From: Promethearchaeota archaeon
GTDB taxonomy: Archaea; Asgardarchaeota; Lokiarchaeia; Sigyniarchaeales; SOKP01
Direction of reading: 5' to 3'
Assembly: GCA_016839765.1 (NCBI GenBank)
Contig: JAEOTP010000036.1
Span: 1 to 19,629 of the forward strand
Length of the DNA stretch: 19,629 nucleotides
The notes beneath the pieces were generated by a model. The model saw nothing but the letters and a program-made list of their open reading frames with translations. It made no database searches and was not told where the DNA came from. The position numbers and the translations under genes are program-made. Shown one piece after another: positions 213 to 12,509 of this stretch. Every line of letters begins with the position of its first letter. The stretch's first letter is position 1.

Positions 213-2327
213 ATGTCTGATTTAATTATTATAGATATTACTGAAAACGAGAAATTAGTAATAGACGGCTCTCTAAATCTTAAGGAAATTAAAGGTAGTG
301 GAAATTTATCAGTAAAGAATCCCTCAAATAAAAGTAGGGTCTGGAATTTAATGTGTGATTTAAAAGAAATTGTTAATACGACGATAGATTCAAGAGAACT
401 TAATGTTGGAATACTTAATCCTTCACAAGAATATAATAAAGATTATGAGATACAAAATTTAAAACAATCTTCATTGATTGTTAATGAAACATTTGATACA
501 CATAGAGATATTAATGATAAACTAAACAATGTTTTTCTTTTTGAAAGTGATAATAAAAGTAGTATAAAAATTACATTAACTAATCCTTTAGAAATTCCAA
601 TATCAAACATTAAATTAAGTCGGGAAATTCCTAGTTTCATCCAAGAGATTGAAATTAAAGCGCCAAATGTTGGAAGTGCTGGAGTAAAGGAAGAGTTAGA
701 AAGCAGAACCCTAGAATGGGTTATTGTAAATTTAGATGGCAACCAAACTGCTGAACTAATTGTCTTTTGTAGCGTTAATGTTAAAGATAGAGAGAAAAAA
801 GCCCTTGGTAAATTAAATATCTCTTACTTAATTAATAATTATAGGTTAACATTATTAAATCCAGAAATTCGTGGACTTACAGATTCAATGAGTGGGATTG
901 ACAGAGATGAAGGAGTTCAACCTGGTTCTTGGGATTGTGAAGTTGAATTCATAAATGAATCAGAATTTCAAGTAAAATTAGAAGATATAAAAGTGATGCA
1001 TAAAATAATTACTGGAACAGAGACTGTAGTATCTCAAGCACCTAATCGATTATTAAATCCTGAACAATCATGGACATATAATTTTCAAGTTGATTCAAAA
1101 GATGTACCTGAACTAAGCTCAACCATCGAATTCACTCCACTATTTGTAGTTATAACAAGAGTTATTGGTGAAATAACTAAAGAATCTACTGTTTATCCCG
1201 TGTTAAGTGCAGCTATAGAAAAAGTTATTAATCCACCAGAAGTTGATGCATACGCTAACACTGATATCCAAATCGAAAATATAATTACCAATAACGGGAG
1301 TTCTATTATTAATTCCATAAGAATCATAGATTATATTCCTCAAGACTTTATTTGTCCCTTACTCAGTCAAATTGCAATAAATTTGCAAAGTATAGATATT
1401 AGTTCAAGAACAGATTTTACTAATAAAATAGAGATTAATCCTAGTGATCAGAATCCTGAAACACAACATACAATTACTATAGAGCTTTTTAATTTATCAG
1501 ATCAATTCCTACCAAATTCTAAATTAAACATAAAGTACCCATTAGTTGCAAAAAATCCAAGACCTCCTACTGAAACTCTATATAAAACACCAGTAAAAAT
1601 AGAAGCTAACAGTCCCGTAGAGGGAAAGTATTATGTAGATGAGCCTATAGATGAACCTGAAATAAAAGTCAAATATGTAAAGCGTAAATTAAAAACTCTC
1701 AAAAGTATTAAACCTGGTACATCTGAAGGAGAATTTTCAATTTCTGTTCGTATCCAGAATAAAGGAAATGTAGAATTAGAAAATATTATTATAAAAGATA
1801 AAATTCCTAGGGGTTTCAATTTATCACAAATCGAAATTGATGCTTATGAGGTTAATCAATTAGGAGAAGGATCAGAGTTACAAGTTAAAATAGCCGAATT
1901 AAAAGGAAGTGATTCATTTATTATCAATTATAGCTGCTCAGGTCAAGGAGAATATCCCAGATACGAGCCTGAAGTCATTGTTCAGGGCAGAGAGGGTCTA
2001 GATCAAACTTCAGAAACTTCTAGTCAAAACCTAGAATCATCTTCTCTTACTGAAACAAAAATCAGTGAGATAAGCATAGAAAAGAAAGCAGTAATTCATG
2101 AATTATTTAATACCATCTTTAAAAAGATAGATCAAACAATAACAGGGAATGAATTAGGTATATTTATTGAAGGAATGAGAGACAAAATTCCTCCTGGTCC
2201 CGTCTTACATCAGTTTATGCAATTTGCAAGGGAAATAAGAACAACTTCAGCAGAAAAAGTTATTGTTGGGTCATTGAGGGATGAAGTATTAACTAAGTTA
2301 AAGGAATTTAAAGATAAATATGCCTAG
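213..2327 (+). CDS. Cytoplasmic multi-beta-sandwich protein: N-terminal mu-homology-like (AP-mu/delta-COP) region, extra DUF11-like Ig domains, S/T/E-rich linker, C-terminal helical domain
   Basis: 704-aa ORF with no signal peptide or TM segment. Five recurrences of an Ig-like motif (LSVKNPS, ITLTNPL..ISNIKLSREIP, VEFINES, IITNNGS..INSIRIIDYIP, VRIQNKG..LENIIIKDKIP). The N-terminus and LEWVI region resemble the mu-homology domain. The CDS is certain; the domain call is manual. Confidence 0.6.
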   Translation: MSDLIIIDITENEKLVIDGSLNLKEIKGSGNLSVKNPSNKSRVWNLMCDLKEIVNTTIDSRELNVGILNPSQEYNKDYEIQNLKQSSLIVNETFDTHRDINDKLNNVFLFESDNKSSIKITLTNPLEIPISNIKLSREIPSFIQEIEIKAPNVGSAGVKEELESRTLEWVIVNLDGNQTAELIVFCSVNVKDREKKALGKLNISYLINNYRLTLLNPEIRGLTDSMSGIDRDEGVQPGSWDCEVEFINESEFQVKLEDIKVMHKIITGTETVVSQAPNRLLNPEQSWTYNFQVDSKDVPELSSTIEFTPLFVVITRVIGEITKESTVYPVLSAAIEKVINPPEVDAYANTDIQIENIITNNGSSIINSIRIIDYIPQDFICPLLSQIAINLQSIDISSRTDFTNKIEINPSDQNPETQHTITIELFNLSDQFLPNSKLNIKYPLVAKNPRPPTETLYKTPVKIEANSPVEGKYYVDEPIDEPEIKVKYVKRKLKTLKSIKPGTSEGEFSISVRIQNKGNVELENIIIKDKIPRGFNLSQIEIDAYEVNQLGEGSELQVKIAELKGSDSFIINYSCSGQGEYPRYEPEVIVQGREGLDQTSETSSQNLESSSLTETKISEISIEKKAVIHELFNTIFKKIDQTITGNELGIFIEGMRDKIPPGPVLHQFMQFAREIRTTSAEKVIVGSLRDEVLTKLKEFKDKYA

Positions 2328-3757: not shown

Positions 3758-4975
3758 TTAAATTTCTTTAATTTTATTTATTTCATCTTTAATATTTTTT
3801 TGTAATTTTGCTAGTTCTTCGATAAATTTCTGTGAAATTTCAATTTTTTTCTTTAGTAACTCATCTGATTTTGTATTTTTATCATACTCAATTTGTTTTA
3901 TAGCCAAATTATATGACTTAATTTGATTTAATGAAATTTCAATTTTTCTTAGGTTGATTTTAATTCCTCTTTTATATTTTTTAAAAATATCCATTAATGT
4001 CTCAGAATTTTCAATATAATTCGTCCATTGCTCCAATTCTTGATCGTCTTTTAGAATTTCTATCGTATTATACATATTTTCTAAAAAAGCTATGAAAATA
4101 TTTCTGGGTTTTATCTCAAGTGATTGGCTCCTCGATTTCGGTTCTAGATTAAGTTTTTCAATAATGTCCTTGGCATATTGAACTGAAATTCGGTTTTCAA
4201 TTTTTTTCAAATCATTAGTGGAAATTTCAGCATTTTTCTTATCAAAATCATCAATATCTGTAACTAATTTTAATTCATCTAACTGAATTTGGGTAATTAA
4301 AGGGGTAAATCTTACTGAAAGATGTTTTTTTCCATAAAAATTATTATTTAATCTTAAAATTTGAGTATAGGTTTGTATAAATTCCTCTCCAATCGGTGCA
4401 AATAAAACACCATATTCATGATCAAGTTGATTTAATAATGGATAAATTTTTTCTTGCTTAATAGCACCTGTCACTAATATTTTTTTCCAGGGACCCCTCT
4501 CTGGCATACCAACTAAAGGGTTTTTCACAATAACCTTTATCTTTTCATTCAATCCAAGTTGTTCTAAATTTTTTTGAGTAACCTTTGCAATTCTTGAATT
4601 TGCCTCAAGGATAACAATTTTTCCTTGGGGAGCTAATTTATGTGCTAAAACTGCTATGTAGCCACTTTTTGCTCCTAAGATCAATAAGTCATCATTTTCT
4701 TTTAAGATTAGATTTTGAAGCATAATAGTAATCATATGAGGTGCTGAAATTGTTCTTAAATTTTCAGGGCGTTCTCTTTCATAGTAAAAAAGAACTGGTG
4801 CGTCGTCATAAATCCTTACTGATGGTAGAATTTCCTTTGGGACAAACTTTTCCAATTGTACATCTAAGAAGGCTTTAAAAAGTCGAATATCTTTAAGATA
4901 ACCGTTATACAATAATGATAATAAGAGCTGAATTTTTGAATAGAAGATTTTTTTTCTCTCCACGATAATCAACAA
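3758..4975 (-). CDS. Protein-L-isoaspartate O-methyltransferase (PIMT/Pcm)-like protein with degenerate SAM motifs and a ~175-aa C-terminal coiled-coil extension
   Basis: RTISAPHM..ML..L, ILVTGA, QL...GVLFAPIG and VRFTPL match PIMT. Motif I reads LILGAKSGY. The true start may be GTG at 4963 (MERKKIF). Confidence 0.8.
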   Translation of the reverse strand: MLIIVERKKIFYSKIQLLLSLLYNGYLKDIRLFKAFLDVQLEKFVPKEILPSVRIYDDAPVLFYYERERPENLRTISAPHMITIMLQNLILKENDDLLILGAKSGYIAVLAHKLAPQGKIVILEANSRIAKVTQKNLEQLGLNEKIKVIVKNPLVGMPERGPWKKILVTGAIKQEKIYPLLNQLDHEYGVLFAPIGEEFIQTYTQILRLNNNFYGKKHLSVRFTPLITQIQLDELKLVTDIDDFDKKNAEISTNDLKKIENRISVQYAKDIIEKLNLEPKSRSQSLEIKPRNIFIAFLENMYNTIEILKDDQELEQWTNYIENSETLMDIFKKYKRGIKINLRKIEISLNQIKSYNLAIKQIEYDKNTKSDELLKKKIEISQKFIEELAKLQKNIKDEINKIKEI

Positions 4976-5653: not shown

Positions 5654-6319
5654 TTAACTATTATTTTTTTTCTTCTTAATTGCTCGTTCCATTGAGAAAT
5701 CTCTGGGACAGAAGTTAATTAATGGGCAAATATCACATTTTGGATTATTAGGTAAGCATAATTCTTGTCCAAATCTCACAAACAAACGATTAACGCGAAT
5801 CCATTGATCTTTAGGAATTAATGCTCTTAATTTTTTCTCTGTATCATTTGGATTTTTGGTTTTAACCCAACCTATTCTATTACTTATCCTATGCACATGT
5901 GTATCGACGGGTATAGCAGGAATTTTAAATGCATACACTAAAACACAATTAGCTGTTTTAGCACCAACACCAGGAAGATTTAGTAAATCCTTAAATGTAT
6001 TTGGGACTTGACTCTCATATTTTTCTAATAATAGTTTAGCCACTTCTTTTATACGAGCTGCTTTAACTTTATAAAACCCTGATTTGTAAATAAGGCGTTC
6101 TAATTCCTCTACATCGGCATTAGCTATTTCTTGTGGAGTGCTATATTTTGAAAATAGTATTTCAGTAGCTTCTCTTGTATTGGTATCTCTAGTTCGTGCC
6201 GATAAAATTGTGGATATTAAAATTTTAAAGGGATCTTGTTTTTTACTTGCTAATTCATCTAAATGGGCTTCTCCTTTAAGTGTTTGCTCAATTTTATCAA
6301 AAACTTTTTTTATCTCCAT
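5654..6319 (-). CDS. nth: Endonuclease III (HhH-GPD DNA glycosylase/AP lyase, 4Fe-4S)
   Basis: LISTILSART, HhH LLNLPGVGAKTA (catalytic Lys), PVDTHV (catalytic Asp), C-x6-C-x2-C-x5-C cluster CLPNNPKCDICPLINFC. Confidence 0.96.
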   Translation of the reverse strand: MEIKKVFDKIEQTLKGEAHLDELASKKQDPFKILISTILSARTRDTNTREATEILFSKYSTPQEIANADVEELERLIYKSGFYKVKAARIKEVAKLLLEKYESQVPNTFKDLLNLPGVGAKTANCVLVYAFKIPAIPVDTHVHRISNRIGWVKTKNPNDTEKKLRALIPKDQWIRVNRLFVRFGQELCLPNNPKCDICPLINFCPRDFSMERAIKKKKNNS

Positions 6320-6331
6320 ATAAATTCTCTA

Positions 6332-7735
6332 TTATGAAATTTTTTCAAATAAGTAGATTTTTCTTTTAATTATTTGATCTTTTTTCGCATCAATCATTGT
6401 TCTTACTTGTTTTTTCCGAAACTGTAGCCTTTGATTGGATTTATTAATAATTCGGTTAATATCTAATAAAGGAATAAGTTTAAAATTAAAATTATTTGCA
6501 ATTTTTTCAATATTTAATTGAATATCTCCGCCGTCTAAAGTTTCAATAATAGGAGATATAATACATATTCGCCCATTTTCTTTAAGTACTTTATAGGCCT
6601 CTCTAAAGGCAAATTGATAGATTGGCTCTAGTTTGTTTTCAATTAACTCTTTAACCTCAGAATAATAGGGTCTTTCGCTGTAAAAAGGCCCTAATTCTGG
6701 TTCGGTACAAATTCCATCAAAAAATTTTTCTTTGAAACTATTTGATAAATTTTCCACGTCTGTAGATTTGATTCTTTCCGTGAATAGTAAAGGGATAGGT
6801 TCTTCTAATTCATTCAGTAACCAATTAATATTTCTAACTGTGTTTTTTACTTTTACCTTATCTATATCTGAACCATAAATTTGGAAGTCTTGAAGTAAAG
6901 CAAATAATAAAATTGTCCCATTTCCGACAAAGGGGTCAAGTATATTCTTCTTATGTCTATTATCAAACAGATTTAACAAATTTAACATAATTATTGATAA
7001 TTTAGGTGAAATATTACTTTTAAATTCTTTAAGTGGCCTTTCTTCATCTATTTTTCTTTTAAAATTAGGATCATCACAAGTATATGTTCTTGCAATATAT
7101 ACACCCTCTTCAGTAAAACCAAATATTAATTCTGCCCGATCCTTATTTAATAAACCATATTTTATAACATGATGAGGAAAGATGGGATTTAATGTCCCTT
7201 CTTCGATATTTTTCTCTGGATATTGATAATAGAGAGCCCTTTCAGCGCCCTTTTTTTTTAAGATCTTCATTATTTCTGTGTTAAGAAATGGTAGGAAATG
7301 TTTTACTAAAACTTTTGGGTAGTATTCATCGTCAAAAAAGTTTGGATAGATAGATACAGCATAGAAAATTCTTTCATTTTTTATTTTTGGAAAGATCTCA
7401 TCAAGATTTGAAGCTATAACATCTAATATCTTTTTTCGTAGTTTTTGGATTTCCTGAAATTTCTCAATTTTTAGCGGAAAGGCTTCTATAATATTATGAA
7501 TATGGATGAAATCATATACTTTTGCGATTTTTTGAGTCCCTCCTAAAATGAATTGAAATTCCATCAAGTCATTTATATAATGTTTATGTTTATCTAATTT
7601 ATCAAATTCTACAATAGCCACATTAGCGGAATAATCCATAATTTTTCCTAAATACTTTGAATTCTTCAGCACATTATCTAATTCTGCTAATGAAAGTTGC
7701 CAGTTTGACCCTAAGACCATTAAAAATTTTTCCAT
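6332..7735 (-). CDS. Trm11/COG1041-like SAM-dependent RNA (tRNA guanine-N2) methyltransferase
   Basis: N-terminal LSLAEL motif, ISPKLSIIMLNL, motif I ILDPFVGNGTI, GSDID, motif IV variant ICTEPELGP, and LKENGRIC. Confidence 0.8.
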   Translation of the reverse strand: MEKFLMVLGSNWQLSLAELDNVLKNSKYLGKIMDYSANVAIVEFDKLDKHKHYINDLMEFQFILGGTQKIAKVYDFIHIHNIIEAFPLKIEKFQEIQKLRKKILDVIASNLDEIFPKIKNERIFYAVSIYPNFFDDEYYPKVLVKHFLPFLNTEIMKILKKKGAERALYYQYPEKNIEEGTLNPIFPHHVIKYGLLNKDRAELIFGFTEEGVYIARTYTCDDPNFKRKIDEERPLKEFKSNISPKLSIIMLNLLNLFDNRHKKNILDPFVGNGTILLFALLQDFQIYGSDIDKVKVKNTVRNINWLLNELEEPIPLLFTERIKSTDVENLSNSFKEKFFDGICTEPELGPFYSERPYYSEVKELIENKLEPIYQFAFREAYKVLKENGRICIISPIIETLDGGDIQLNIEKIANNFNFKLIPLLDINRIINKSNQRLQFRKKQVRTMIDAKKDQIIKRKIYLFEKIS

Positions 7736-7797: not shown

Positions 7798-9069
7798 TCA
7801 ATCAATTTCAAAAATATACTTAATTACTGAAATTATATCAGCCTTTCTTGCGTTAGGAGGTAATTCAATATTGTATTCTGTACAAAATTTTTTTAAATCC
7901 TTAACTGTCCAACCATTTAAATCCTCTGGTAATTCAGCCAAAGCTTTTTTTTTTTCCTCTTCTTCCTCAAAATCGATTGATCGCTCATATTTCTCACCAG
8001 TTAATTCTTCAATTGCTCCAATAATACCTTCTAAATCCTCTTTTTTTCTTTCTGGGATAATCTCTAATAATTCTTCTTCTTCAGGTTTTTCTTGTACTTC
8101 TAATGCTTTCTTAATTGCTTCTAAGTGCTCTTTTTTCTTTTCTAATCTCTCTCCCCTAATTTTTTTGATTTCTTTCATAATGCTATTATAGTTATCTTTG
8201 AAGTATTTAAGACTAATATTAATAAGATCGGAAAAGTTCTCCCAGTCTTCTTTACTTATAATTGAATCTGCCCAATGAAACAAATCTAATTGTAAATCAA
8301 TTGTAAGTGCTTTACCCTCCATCTCAATATTTGTAGTTAACCATCTCAAAATGTTTGCTAGAAAAATATCATTATCAAAAGCACTAAAACCGTATTCTCT
8401 GCCTAATGATGAGAATATTGATAAAGTTCCAAAAGCAACAACTTTTCCCTTAAAATATTCAACAGCTACCATTAAGTCAATTTTTGGACAGTCCTCTTCA
8501 ACCCATTCATCCCCATCAAATTTTTTTCTCCAACAATTTATCCCGCCTTTGACAAGTGGTTCAATTTTAATATCTTTTTCATCTTCTAAAAAATCTAACA
8601 CTTCTATAGAACATGGATTTGATAAAACTATTTTCCTTACTTGTTCAGTAATGAAATGTGGTTTAAGTTTTTGTAATAATGGTCTTTTCTGTAAATTAAC
8701 GTAGGTTACTGAATCATAAATTTCATCAGGAGCAAATTCAAAACCAAATTTACTAGTTAATTCATTTAAATTTGTACGATTTAAATAATCTCCGCCTCGG
8801 GCTCCAATGATTAATAAACTTCCACCATTTTTCACATATTGTTCAAGAATATCTAGTTCCTCTGGGCTGAGATTTACATTTTTTGGAGTGGACATAATAA
8901 CAGCATCATAATTCCCTAATTTTTCCGAAGAGTAGAATCCTGCTTCAATTTTTCCTAATTTATAACCTGAATTAAATAAGAATTGAGTAAAATCAGCATA
9001 GCTAGATGCTTCTAACATCAGCATATTATTATGACTATAATCAAGCCCAATTGCTATATCATTTCTCAT
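7798..9069 (-). CDS. GIFT/IFT52-like (GldG/DUF4350, GATase1-like) domain + ribbon-helix-helix + coiled coil + C-terminal SAP/HeH/Rho_N-like domain protein
   Basis: aa1-246: DYSHN, YDAVIMSTP, ELDILEQYVKNGGSLLI, TNLNEL..KFG, GKVVAFG..SIFS, DN..FLANILRWL. aa253-294: RHH pattern. aa382-420: LNGWTVKDLKKFC..YNIELPPNARKADIISVI. Confidence 0.75.
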   Translation of the reverse strand: MRNDIAIGLDYSHNNMLMLEASSYADFTQFLFNSGYKLGKIEAGFYSSEKLGNYDAVIMSTPKNVNLSPEELDILEQYVKNGGSLLIIGARGGDYLNRTNLNELTSKFGFEFAPDEIYDSVTYVNLQKRPLLQKLKPHFITEQVRKIVLSNPCSIEVLDFLEDEKDIKIEPLVKGGINCWRKKFDGDEWVEEDCPKIDLMVAVEYFKGKVVAFGTLSIFSSLGREYGFSAFDNDIFLANILRWLTTNIEMEGKALTIDLQLDLFHWADSIISKEDWENFSDLINISLKYFKDNYNSIMKEIKKIRGERLEKKKEHLEAIKKALEVQEKPEEEELLEIIPERKKEDLEGIIGAIEELTGEKYERSIDFEEEEEKKKALAELPEDLNGWTVKDLKKFCTEYNIELPPNARKADIISVIKYIFEID

Positions 9070-9323
9070 GGGTAGTGATCATTTCTTTTTTTTTATTCTT
9101 TTTAATAATAATAATTCCCATTTTTAATTTCTTTTATGTAAAAATTTTTATTAATTTCTTAAAAAACCTTATAATATAACCGTTTTATAAGAATAGAGTT
9201 CTAAAGTAAATTTCTTCTATATAATATAAAAATTTCGTTTGTAGCTTATATTTTCTAGGATAATATTATTAAATGATTAAGTTGAAATTAGTATAAATTA
9301 GAAAGAAACTTTGGTAAATTCAT

Positions 9324-10755
9324 ATGAAAAAAAGAGAAATTTTATCTACAGGATTTTTCATTTTTTTAATTCTCATTATGATTATGGATATGCATTAATT
9401 CTTCCTAATGAGGTCTTAATTGCAGCAGATTTAAAAGTAAACTTCGATGCACTTGGAATATTAATTGGGCTCTATACTATAATCCTTGGCGTCTCAATTT
9501 TGGTTTTTGGTTATTTAACTGACAAAATTAATAGAAAGAGAATTTTAATTTTCTCAGGGCTTTTATGGGCAATTCCCGTTATTTTTTACCTATTTATTCT
9601 AGAATTTTGGCAATTATTACTTCTTAGAATAATAGCTGCTATTGCTCAGGAGCAGCACCACTAACTATCTCATATTTAGCAGATATGATTTCTCCAAAAT
9701 CTCGTTCAAAATCATTCGCATTTTGGGGATTAGTCGAAACATTTGCTACTCTATTTGCTAGTTTTTTTGCTTTAGCATTTAACTTTATAGATTTTGGAGC
9801 AATTGGAGGTACCCCTAATGAAAAAATCGAGTTCATTGCAACAAATTATCCAAATCTTCTCTATACATGGCGTTTACCCTATTTTTATTTAGGAATTTTA
9901 GCTTTAATAGTTATAGGTTTTAATTTTTTTATTGTAGTAGAGCCCAAAAGAGCGGCAAAAGAAACTTATTTTAAAGATATATTATCAAAAGAAGATCTTC
10001 AATATTCCTATAAAATAAAACTAGCTGATTTGAAATTTATCTTTAAAAGAAAATCAAATTTTTTTTTAATATTTAATTTTTTTGATGTAATTGCCTCTGG
10101 GTTATTGGTTGCTTATATTTTTCCCTATATTCAGCTTGAAATTGGAGTAAGTGTAATCGATTTGAAAATAATTATACTTTTTCTAGTATTAATTATTTTT
10201 GGGTTAATTTTAGGGCAATTTTGGCTAGCACATTGGGGAGATAGGAAAGTTCAAAAAGGAGATCTTTCTGGAAGGGTAAAAATTGCGATCATTTGTTCTA
10301 TTTTAAATTTACCCTTTCTTTTAATTGCTTTTACAATGTCTCCAAATGTTTCAAATCAGACATTCTTCTTTAATTCATTAGTAGTAAATGAGACAAGGTT
10401 TTGGGTTCTATGGATAATTTTTACATTATTAATAGGTTTAGGCATGGCATTCACCTTTGGAATTGCCCCTAATTGGTATTCAGCAATGATTGATGTGAAT
10501 TTTCCAGAAAATCGAGGTACTATGATTGCAATTGCCTCTTTCATTGACACTATAGGACGTGCAATAGGGGCTCTCATAGGCGGATTTGTGGTTGTATTAA
10601 CTGGAAGTTTTTCCTCTACAATAATTTGGACACTGTTAGTTTTTGGAATCATCTCCATCGGATTCTGGATTCCATTATTCTTTACTGCTCAAAAAGATTT
10701 CAATAGTGTCAATGAAATTATGAAAGAACGAGCAAGGGAAATGGAAAAAAAATGA
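9324..10755 (+). pseudogene. MFS transporter (Spinster-like) split by two single-base deletions (pseudogene or sequencing error)
   Basis: Frame from ATG 9324 reads MKKREILSTGFFIFLILIMIMD and stops at 9398. A -1 shift near 9390 continues ALILPNE...GYLTDKINRK (MFS motif A)...LRIIAAI. A second -1 shift near 9645 continues SGAAPLTISYLADMISPKSR into ORF 9685..10755. Restored length is about 477 aa. Confidence 0.85.
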
Positions 10756-11651: not shown

Positions 11652-12509
11652 TTACTTTTTTGAGGCTAAAATGTCAATCACAGTATGAAATAGGTTAGGA
11701 CCGTAACTTTTAACATATCTCTTCGATAATATTTCACATTTAATCTTCTCTGTAGTAGCTATATCTTCAAATTCTTGAAATAATGGCAAATAATTTTCCC
11801 CTTCAACTACACCCTCATAATGATAGATTGTGCCATTTTCTTTTAAAAGAGTCAGTGCTTCTTTGATATATCCTTTTGGAGCGGGAAGCACCCCCATAAT
11901 AATCCTATCTGCTTTGATTCCGGACTTACTTAATTTTATTACTTCTTCCTTACAATCACCATGAATTGGAATGATAACGTCTTCAAGATGATTAAGTTTA
12001 ACATTTATCACTAAATAGTTATAAGATCCTGTGTTTAATTCAATACTATAAATCTTAGCTGGCTTCGCGTGTCTTGCAATAGGTAATGAAAAATAACCAA
12101 TACCAGCGAACATATCCACAATAATCTCACCATCTCTGACTAAGCTCGCTAAATATTTTCTCTCATTAATGTTTCCCTTGCTAAACATTATTTTAGTTAT
12201 ATCAAATCGATAAATTACATCATGTTCTTTATGCTCAACTATAGGATTATCTTCTCCTGCTATCAATTCAATCTTTTCCGGCTTTCTAAAGGTTCCAACT
12301 ACTTTACCTAGGTTAAGATAGACGGATTTGAAATTTGGGAACAATTTTAGACATGTTTCCCCAATTAGGAATTTTTTTTTTATTATTTTTGAATTGAGTT
12401 TTAAAATCATAACTTTACCTAATATCTGAAATCCCCTTGGAAGTAATGAGAGTTCTTCTTCTGTAAGGGAATCTCGTAATTCTGCTTTTAATTGCTCTTT
12501 AAATCCCAT
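11652..12509 (-). CDS. taw2: tRNA(Phe) wyosine-derivative aminocarboxypropyltransferase Taw2 (Trm5/TYW2, Met-10+ family)
   Basis: IMFSKGNINER, IVDMFAGIGYFSLPIA, YSIELN, ADRIIMG and GTIYHYE fit the Taw2/TYW2 branch; it lacks the N-terminal D1 domain of Trm5. Confidence 0.8.
   Translation of the reverse strand: MGFKEQLKAELRDSLTEEELSLLPRGFQILGKVMILKLNSKIIKKKFLIGETCLKLFPNFKSVYLNLGKVVGTFRKPEKIELIAGEDNPIVEHKEHDVIYRFDITKIMFSKGNINERKYLASLVRDGEIIVDMFAGIGYFSLPIARHAKPAKIYSIELNTGSYNYLVINVKLNHLEDVIIPIHGDCKEEVIKLSKSGIKADRIIMGVLPAPKGYIKEALTLLKENGTIYHYEGVVEGENYLPLFQEFEDIATTEKIKCEILSKRYVKSYGPNLFHTVIDILASKK

What the first reader, a model, noticed from the sequence alone, without database searches (positions are those of the whole stretch)
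7798..9069. IFT52-like GIFT domain fused to ribbon-helix-helix and SAP/HeH nucleic-acid-binding modules
Seen: aa1-246 closely follow the IFT52 N-terminal GIFT domain as recalled: SSEKLGNYDAVIMSTP vs TSEKLNGVKLWITAGP; GGSLLIIGARGGDYLNRTNLNELTSKFG vs GGDVFVMLGEGGESRFDTNINFLLEEYG; GKVVAFGTLSIFS..DN..NILRWLT vs GKLAVLGSCHMFS..EN..VFQWLT. Many prokaryotic GIFT proteins (GldG, DUF4350) are exported or membrane-anchored, but this one is soluble like IFT52. It is followed by an RHH-like segment, a K/E coiled coil, an acidic linker and a SAP/HeH-like helix-loop-helix. Inference: a dimeric DNA-binding protein (one-component regulator or chromosome tether) using a fold that eukaryotes use in intraflagellar transport. 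I do not recognise this four-part architecture as described.
Basis: partly seen in the sequence, partly recalled or inferred. Interest (0 to 1): 0.8.

Follow-up and report, generated by a model that had tools for sequence, protein, structure and literature searches.

The report
Loki archaeal GIFT–RHH dimer, swappable tail
One order of Asgard archaea has a conserved soluble protein that joins a GIFT domain (the fold found in the cilia-transport protein IFT52, here with no catalytic cysteine) to a ribbon-helix-helix dimer of the kind that binds DNA; it is probably a gene regulator or nucleoid adaptor, but it is not especially close to IFT52, and its SAP/HeH tail was found in only one genus.

Summary
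The 423-aa ORF (7798-9069, minus strand, Promethearchaeia/Loki) has the three modules claimed. GIFT: Pfam PF23355 above cut-off; best PDB fold is IFT52N (Z 25.2). RHH: ungapped 43-column profile match to archaeal RHH_1; the homodimer model scores 0.57 against a best control of 0.00, with the confident interface at 251-301. HeH: sub-threshold Pfam and fold matches, all to SAP/LEM/Rho-N-type domains.

Two parts of the reading do not hold. (1) It is not specially IFT52-like. It ranks 213 of 235 prokaryotic GIFT frames on an IFT52 profile and nests among Loki paralogues. Sisterhood with IFT52 is the least favoured of three placements but is not rejected (AU p=0.22). (2) The four-part architecture is genus-specific. 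Of 104 orthologues, 34 end in HeH, 55 in an unrelated Trp mini-domain that also tags RNA polymerase A', and 15 in neither.

The conserved core is GIFT + RHH + long helix + a short amphipathic helix. It lies after taw2/trm5 across most of the order, including cultured P. syntrophicum and L. ossiferum. Best reading: a dimeric RHH DNA-binding regulator or adaptor with GIFT as input domain. DNA binding is untested. The scan noted this family on other genomes; I found no paper on it.

The parts
7798..9069 (-). Whole gene, 423 aa, GIFT-RHH-helix-HeH protein
   Evidence: 531 homologues
8329..9069 (-). GIFT domain (class I glutamine amidotransferase-like fold), aa1-247; no Cys at the nucleophile elbow after the GGSLL strand
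8764..8796 (-). G-G-[DE]-x4-T-N-[LI]-N motif (aa92-102), shared by IFT52 and all three soluble Asgard GIFT groups, much weaker in the other GIFTs sampled
   Evidence: PDB alignments
8188..8322 (-). Ribbon-helix-helix domain, aa250-294; predicted homodimer interface; keeps K253, T256, N278, S280
8092..8187 (-). Long charged helix aa295-326 continuing RHH helix B (coiled coil inferred, not shown)
7990..8043 (-). Short amphipathic helix aa343-360, conserved in the long orthologues including the cultured strains; flanked by low-confidence acidic linkers
7801..7935 (-). HeH (SAP/LEM/Rho-N-like) module aa379-423; found on this protein only in the host's genus; replaced by an unrelated Trp mini-domain or absent elsewhere
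11652..12509 (-). Taw2/Trm5-family tRNA methyltransferase; directly upstream in most orthologous loci, separated here by two inserted genes
6332..7735 (-). TIGR01177 (Trm11/TrmG10)-like methyltransferase, below cut-off; conserved downstream neighbour (77 of 80 loci)
5654..6319 (-). Endonuclease III (Nth); conserved third gene of the run

Best explanation
A cytoplasmic homodimer specific to one order of Loki-type Asgard archaea that works like a one-component RHH regulator or nucleoid adaptor. Shown by computation: the GIFT and RHH folds, dimerisation through the RHH alone in the model, no catalytic Cys at the GATase elbow, conservation across the order, and a replaceable C-terminal module. Inferred: (1) the two beta-strands form the usual RHH ribbon, which reads DNA through K253/T256/(D/E)258 while N278/S280 hold the backbone; (2) the two GIFT domains, which make no confident contact with each other, bind a protein partner or a small ligand and so modulate or use that DNA binding, as IFT52's GIFT domain is a protein-binding surface; (3) the long helix and the 343-360 helix extend the dimer or dock a partner; (4) the terminal slot is an optional, flexibly tethered, non-specific nucleic-acid grip, filled here by HeH and in most sister genera by a Trp mini-domain. 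Targets and ligand are unknown.
For: RHH profile match in exact register, with the same K-x-I-T-x strand and N-x-S helix cap as canonical archaeal RHH proteins. T256 is kept in 114/118, S280 in 113/118 and K253 in 93/118; T256 is a DNA-facing position in RHH proteins (own knowledge), so folding alone need not keep it. Family RHH net charge is +0.7 against +1.3 for canonical RHHs, so it is not generally acidic. Homodimer score 0.57 against best control 0.00; the mark was reached by 20 of 30 solved homodimers and 1 of 23 monomers; runs agree in at least 35% of contacts; pLDDT at least 77; interface 251-301. RHH dimers are textbook structures, so the pass may be from memory. JGI's pipeline names five homologues 'Arc/MetJ-type ribbon-helix-helix regulator'. 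RHH proteins are usually DNA-binding dimers (PMC9976892). Both tail modules also sit on DNA machines: HeH on ScpA (19/26) and TopoVI-B (15/29), the Trp mini-domain on RNA polymerase A'. [quoted passage not shown] The MK-D1 orthologue is transcribed, RPKM 228 (PMC7015854).
Against: No direct evidence of DNA binding. Three basic or polar positions of canonical RHHs are changed: H/S/R to D/E258, R to F279 and R to N284. This copy's RHH has net charge -3 and its HeH helices 0. The short paralogue lacks a basic residue in the strand. No operator-like palindrome is conserved upstream across genera. Both tail modules also occur on proteins not known to act on DNA: gelsolin-like proteins (HeH, 15/30), an ABC ATPase, HisKA-receiver proteins and membrane proteins (Trp mini-domain). 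Several of the closest HeH structures are protein-binding (CDNF/MANF-BiP, LEM-BAF, SAP30-Sin3). Near-universal single-copy presence in a fixed housekeeping gene run is not what a typical local regulator looks like (inference).
Confidence: 0.5

Rival explanations
1. The RHH is only a dimerisation device. The protein is a bivalent cytoplasmic scaffold whose GIFT domains and 343-360 helix bind proteins, and the tail is a protein-binding or localisation tag.
For: D/E258, F279 and N284 replace basic or polar residues. The paralogue's strand has no basic residue. The sister GIFT clade carries a heptad-like helical tail where this one has the RHH, which suggests the slot serves oligomerisation. Tags occur on gelsolin-like and membrane proteins.
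Against: K253, T256, N278 and S280 are retained at DNA-facing positions, and family net charge is close to canonical RHHs. ScpA, TopoVI-B and RNAP A' are the most consistent carriers of the two tags among those identified.
Confidence: 0.28
2. It is an accessory factor of tRNA modification or nucleic-acid repair: an RNA-binding or enzyme-scaffolding partner of the neighbouring Taw2/Trm5, TrmG10-like methyltransferase or Nth.
For: The gene order taw2/trm5 > this gene > TrmG10-like > nth holds over most of the order (51 and 77 of 80 loci within 3 kb). Taw2 is directly upstream in both cultured strains, with similar RPKM in MK-D1 (213 against 228). HeH resembles Rho-N.
Against: Intergenic gaps of about 60-100 bp leave room for separate promoters, and genes insert freely between taw2 and this gene in the host genus. 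The whole surrounding block (rhomboid, PCMT, PfpI, AMP-binding) is equally syntenic, so gene order alone is weak evidence. Paralogues lie in unrelated contexts (gyrase; TldD/PmbA-like by eye).
Confidence: 0.1
3. One reading: a sister of eukaryotic IFT52 that tethers the chromosome through a conserved RHH+SAP pair.
For: IFT52N is the best PDB structural and sequence match. It shares the GG[DE]x4TN[LI]N motif. The AU test does not reject the grouping (p 0.216).
Against: The PDB match list holds no GldG/DUF4350 structure to compete, and bacterial GIFT models fit equally well. It ranks 213 of 235 on an IFT52 profile, with mean identity to IFT52 of 20% against 23.7% for the pan-Asgard family. Two starred branches (97/84) place it inside Loki paralogues. 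It was found in one order only. HeH occurs in one genus and is absent from the cultured strains. There is no membrane anchor for a tether.
Confidence: 0.07

Closest known systems
IFT52 N-terminal GIFT domain (PDB 5FMS/5FMR; PF23355)
   Same: Fold (Z 25.2, rmsd 2.3 over 214 aa), soluble, no catalytic elbow Cys, shared GG[DE]x4TN[LI]N motif.
   Different: About 20% identity. It lacks the IFT52 central and C-terminal domains and IFT52's conserved H-P-K-E stretch; it has an extra Trp hairpin (179-193) and an SSL...YG loop; it is followed by an RHH. Not shown to be sister to IFT52.
CopG/Arc/MetJ/NikR-type RHH regulators (PF01402), including archaeal CdrS and aCcr1
   Same: Ungapped beta-helix-helix register, K-x-I-T strand, N-x-S helix cap, predicted intertwined dimer.
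   Different: The RHH is internal, after a 247-aa domain. D/E258, F279 and N284 replace the usual residues, and two invariant Trp are added. No Pfam hit. DNA binding not shown.
HicB-type antitoxin regulators (partner-binding domain followed by a C-terminal RHH; own knowledge, not tested here)
   Same: Same logic: an N-terminal interaction domain, then an RHH.
   Different: The input domain is GIFT, there is no adjacent toxin gene, and the gene sits in a stable housekeeping block.
HeH/SAP/LEM/Rho-N superfamily (PF12949, PF02037, PF07498)
   Same: Two-helix fold, rmsd 1.4-2.3 A over 33-40 residues to CDNF, emerin LEM and Rho-N.
   Different: Here it is a mobile Loki tag also found on ScpA, TopoVI-B and gelsolin-like proteins. 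Net charge is about 0. Its ligand is unknown.
Prokaryotic GldG/DUF4350 (arCOG01314) proteins
   Same: Same GIFT fold (TM 0.50-0.54 to bacterial Atlas models).
   Different: arCOG01314 proteins have a signal peptide and a C-terminal TM helix (PMC5898192); this protein has neither.

Membership tests
GIFT domain superfamily | Profile match above cut-off | tested here: met
   PF23355 31.7 vs 27.2 bits; PF09822 35.0 vs 34.7
GIFT domain superfamily | GATase1-like fold closest to IFT52N/OST48/S1P | tested here: met
   Z 25.2, 19.9, 18.1
IFT52 orthologues | IFT52 central and C-terminal domains | tested here: not met
   No such Pfam hits; RHH, helix and HeH instead
IFT52 orthologues | Groups with IFT52 in a tree | tested here: inconclusive
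   ML tree places it among Loki paralogues; AU p 0.216, dlnL 8.3, against 1.5 for the pan-Asgard family
Class I glutamine amidotransferases (active) | Cys at the nucleophile elbow and a His-x-Glu dyad | tested here: not met
   The elbow after the GGSLL strand carries small residues and GG, no Cys; no conserved His after the last strand (residue positions by analogy, own knowledge)
GldG/DUF4350 exported proteins | Signal peptide or TM anchor | tested here: not met
   Maximum 19-residue hydropathy 1.17, inside the fold
RHH transcription factors | Beta-helix-helix profile | tested here: met
   hhalign probability 71-74%, E about 3e-5, above shuffles and non-overlapping windows; no direct Pfam hit
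RHH transcription factors | Intertwined homodimer | tested here: met
   Model only: 0.57 vs best control 0.00, interface 251-301; may be from memory of solved RHH dimers
RHH transcription factors | DNA-contact residues on the strand and the helix B cap | tested here: inconclusive
   K253, T256, N278 and S280 kept; D/E258, F279 and N284 differ
RHH transcription factors | Sequence-specific DNA binding and regulation | not testable with these tools
   Needs EMSA, SELEX or ChIP; the upstream palindrome search was inconclusive
HeH/SAP/LEM superfamily | Helix-extended loop-helix fold | tested here: met
   Sub-threshold but concordant Pfam hits, 2out E 0.0015, and fold matches
HeH/SAP/LEM superfamily | Binds nucleic acid | not testable with these tools
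   Members bind DNA, RNA or protein; net charge about 0

The most novel reading that the evidence does not exclude
Asgard archaea carry a radiation of soluble GIFT proteins (the pan-Asgard 400-500 aa family, GIFT-coiled-coil and this GIFT-RHH clade), marked by the same GG[DE]x4TN[LI]N motif as IFT52, from which the eukaryotic IFT52 domain descends. This member is a DNA-bound scaffold whose GIFT domains recruit partners as IFT52's does, with two unrelated nucleoid tags interchangeable at its tail.
Probability: 0.15. Interest if true: 0.8.

Novelty: new variant of a known kind. Interest (0 to 1): 0.45.

Why it matters
If it binds DNA, it adds GIFT to the input domains of one-component regulators and gives a first functional handle on soluble prokaryotic GIFT proteins. 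No ligand or partner for them appeared in the literature searched. It can be tested: both cultured Loki strains have an orthologue (DSAG12_01290, which is expressed, and L. ossiferum P0306). The exclusive swap of HeH for an unrelated Trp mini-domain that also tags RNA polymerase A' is a natural experiment on what these Loki tags do. For the origin of cilia, the pan-Asgard GIFT family is a better lead than this protein.

Tried and rejected
Searches for the RHH by direct sequence comparison failed: Pfam and PDB sequences with the family profile found nothing. The AF2 monomer of aa246-423 turned the RHH strand into helix, so the fold searches were uninformative for RHH. Trp mini-domain: no Pfam, NCBIfam, PDB or Atlas family; a resemblance to the RNase H1 N-terminal domain (PF01693) stayed at E 0.05-0.6 per genome and is only a lead; it is not homologous to HeH (probability 0.6%). 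HeH and the Trp module do not swap on ScpA, TopoVI-B or gelsolin-like proteins, so general interchangeability is not shown. Operator search: an AAGA-N6-TCTT palindrome occurs in 9 of 41 non-redundant upstream regions, seen in the lineage with the Trp tail, but related sequences are not independent and I did not see it in this genome's upstream region. The sigma-70 scan was at chance level and does not apply to archaea. AU tests rejected none of the three placements of IFT52. Literature: no paper with Asgard+IFT52 or GIFT domain+IFT52+archaea; the other searches and reads gave nothing on this family; most subscription papers are not in the library. Caveats: my IFT52 set was fished with the shared motif, so its 100% conservation there is by construction (the two PDB chains show it independently). 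The prokaryotic candidates were retrieved by similarity to this protein or to PF23355. The trees lack OST48, S1P and verified GldG, and most 'other' rows have no taxonomy.

Full report
Observation. The finding is one ORF on the minus strand, 7798-9069, 423 aa. Homologues named by their sources are mostly Promethearchaeota (Lokiarchaeia) and otherwise carry other Asgard labels.

GIFT domain. Residues 1-247 pass the Pfam cut-offs for IFT52_GIFT and ABC_transp_aux. The AF2 model (mean pLDDT 79.9) matches mouse IFT52N best (Z 25.2, rmsd 2.3 over 214 aa), then OST48 (19.9) and site-1 protease (18.1). There is no Cys at the amidotransferase elbow and no signal or TM segment. IFT52N likewise lacks catalytic residues, does not appear to bind sugar, and uses a surface patch to bind IFT-B2 (PMC4818760).

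RHH. Direct Pfam and PDB sequence searches fail. I built a profile from 30 Asgard PF01402 proteins and compared it with the family profile. The match is 43 ungapped columns, probability 71-74%, E about 3e-5, score 24.3; column shuffles reached at most 14.3 and non-overlapping windows of the family at most 14.1. The homodimer prediction scores 0.57 against a best control of 0.00 (mark reached by 20/30 solved homodimers and 1/23 monomers; runs agree in at least 35% of contacts; pLDDT at least 77). The confident interface is limited to 251-301, with strand-strand and helix B-helix B contacts. RHH dimers are well represented among solved structures, so this shows likeness, not binding. In register with canonical RHHs the family keeps K253, T256 (114/118), N278 and S280 (113/118), but has D/E258, F279 and N284 where canonical ones have H/S/R, R and R. 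Mean net charge is +0.7 against +1.3; this copy is -3.

Tail. A long helix (294-325) follows the RHH. The last 45 residues are HeH: Pfam HeH, Rho_N and SAP below cut-off, and fold matches to CDNF/MANF, emerin LEM, Rho-N and EndoVII, each weak but concordant.

The architecture is not a fixed four-part unit. Among 104 distinct complete long orthologues, 34 end in HeH, 55 in an unrelated ~40-aa Trp mini-domain (A-[IV]-W-x-G-K-x-T motif) and 15 in neither; none has both. Every genus-labelled HeH copy is from the host's genus (22/22), and 33 of the 34 form one starred clade among Trp-module lineages, which suggests replacement in that genus's ancestor. The two modules are not homologous. Both are mobile in these genomes. 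HeH sits on ScpA (19/26), TopoVI-B (15/29, up to four copies) and gelsolin-like proteins (15/30). The Trp module occurs in all 41 family genomes searched and in the five other genomes of the order tested, and gave one marginal hit in 71 other Asgard genomes. Its carriers here are RNA polymerase A', HisKA-receiver proteins, an ABC ATPase and membrane proteins.

Distribution and context. Orthologues were found in 38 of 41 genomes of the family and in the three other families of the order tested. The 157 other Asgard genomes searched gave only GIFT-level hits (E 1e-17 or weaker). The genome has a short GIFT-RHH paralogue (309 aa), a GIFT-coiled-coil paralogue (307 aa), a pan-Asgard 455-aa GIFT protein, a lone GIFT and a subtilase-GIFT. 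The order taw2/trm5 > gene > TrmG10-like > nth is conserved over most of the order; here an MFS gene and a membrane-protein gene are inserted upstream. P. syntrophicum DSAG12_01290 and the L. ossiferum orthologue follow taw2 directly and have no HeH. The MK-D1 gene is a 'hypothetical protein' at RPKM 228, not flagged as an ESP (PMC7015854).

Relation to IFT52. I retrieved 19 intronless eukaryotic IFT52 domains from metagenomes. On their profile this protein ranks 213 of 235 prokaryotic GIFT frames (37 bits; redundant entries included), below three own paralogues (60, 45, 43) and the pan-Asgard family (up to 99.7). Bacterial GIFT models fit its structure as well as IFT52 does. In a 194-row FastTree and a 51-row LG+C20 tree the GIFT-RHH clade (100/99) lies inside the GIFT-coiled-coil group (97/84 twice), next to the pan-Asgard family (94/78), with IFT52 outside on a long branch. 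AU tests reject nothing: IFT52 + pan-Asgard dlnL 1.5, p 0.465; IFT52 + all soluble Asgard groups 3.7, p 0.393; IFT52 + this clade 8.3, p 0.216. It is shared by IFT52 and all three soluble Asgard groups (G92, G93, D94 and N100 at 72-100%) and much less by the other GIFTs (24-44%). So an Asgard origin of the IFT52 domain is open, but this protein is the least likely of the three candidates tested.

Mechanism. Most likely (0.5) it is an RHH dimer that binds DNA, with two GIFT domains as partner- or ligand-binding inputs and an optional tethered nucleic-acid grip. Folds, dimer model, conservation and the tail swap are computed; DNA binding, the GIFT ligand and the role of the tail are inferred. 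Rivals: a pure protein scaffold dimerised by a repurposed RHH (0.28), a tRNA-modification or repair accessory suggested by gene order (0.1), and an IFT52-sister chromosome tether (0.07).

Novelty. All three domains are known, and databases already label the family as IFT52 GIFT domain-containing or GldG family. I found no paper describing the GIFT-RHH fusion or the tail swap, in a library that lacks most subscription journals. The scan's first readers noted the same architecture in relatives. Verdict: a real, conserved and apparently undescribed architecture, a new variant of a known kind, less tied to cilia than proposed; interest 0.45.

Noticed in passing
window 9311-10755 (+): The MFS transporter gene is split by a 4-nt deletion (1+3) near 9647-9655 relative to six close relatives; the four checked have an intact ~480-aa frame. 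It is a strain-specific pseudogene or an assembly error; no reads were available.
   Followed up: partly
G000:C57:84281-87211 (L060) and seven more own-genome proteins: An unclassified ~40-aa Trp mini-domain ends RNA polymerase A' (three copies in G216) and tags HisKA-receiver proteins, an ABC ATPase and membrane proteins. It was found only in this order, with a weak RNase H1 N-terminal-domain resemblance.
   Followed up: partly
L280:1210-2316, L469-L498: Loki gelsolin-like proteins (Pfam Gelsolin 21.4 bits, cut-off 21) carry one or two C-terminal HeH modules in 15 of 30 loci; a possible actin-to-nucleoid link, untested.
   Followed up: partly
G000:C50:36443-37459 (L065) and L499-L519: The ScpA-like kleisin next to SMC has an N-terminal HeH, and TopoVI-B has 1-4 C-terminal HeH copies, in many genera of the family.
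   Followed up: partly
G000:C66:3612-4979 (L004); L185-L214: A pan-Asgard soluble 400-500 aa GIFT family with a helical C-terminus scores highest against IFT52 among single-domain candidates (up to 100 Pfam bits) and is the best-scoring sister candidate in AU tests. It deserves its own study.
   Followed up: partly
G000:C81:10825-11754 and C6:32711-33634: Short GIFT-RHH paralogue (no basic residue in the strand; possible heterodimer partner) near gyrase, and a GIFT-coiled-coil paralogue upstream of two TldD/PmbA-like genes (by eye).
   Followed up: partly
G000:C96:125952-129971 (L067): A 1339-aa subtilase S8 + GIFT + zinc-ribbon protein, recalling the S8+GIFT arrangement of site-1 protease.
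   Followed up: no
window 213-2327 (+): A 704-aa protein with DUF11-like Ig repeats and a weak adaptor-like Pfam hit (AP3B1_C E 0.1).
   Followed up: no
window 3758-4975 (-): PCMT homologue with a ~175-aa C-terminal extension, conserved in length across the family.
   Followed up: no
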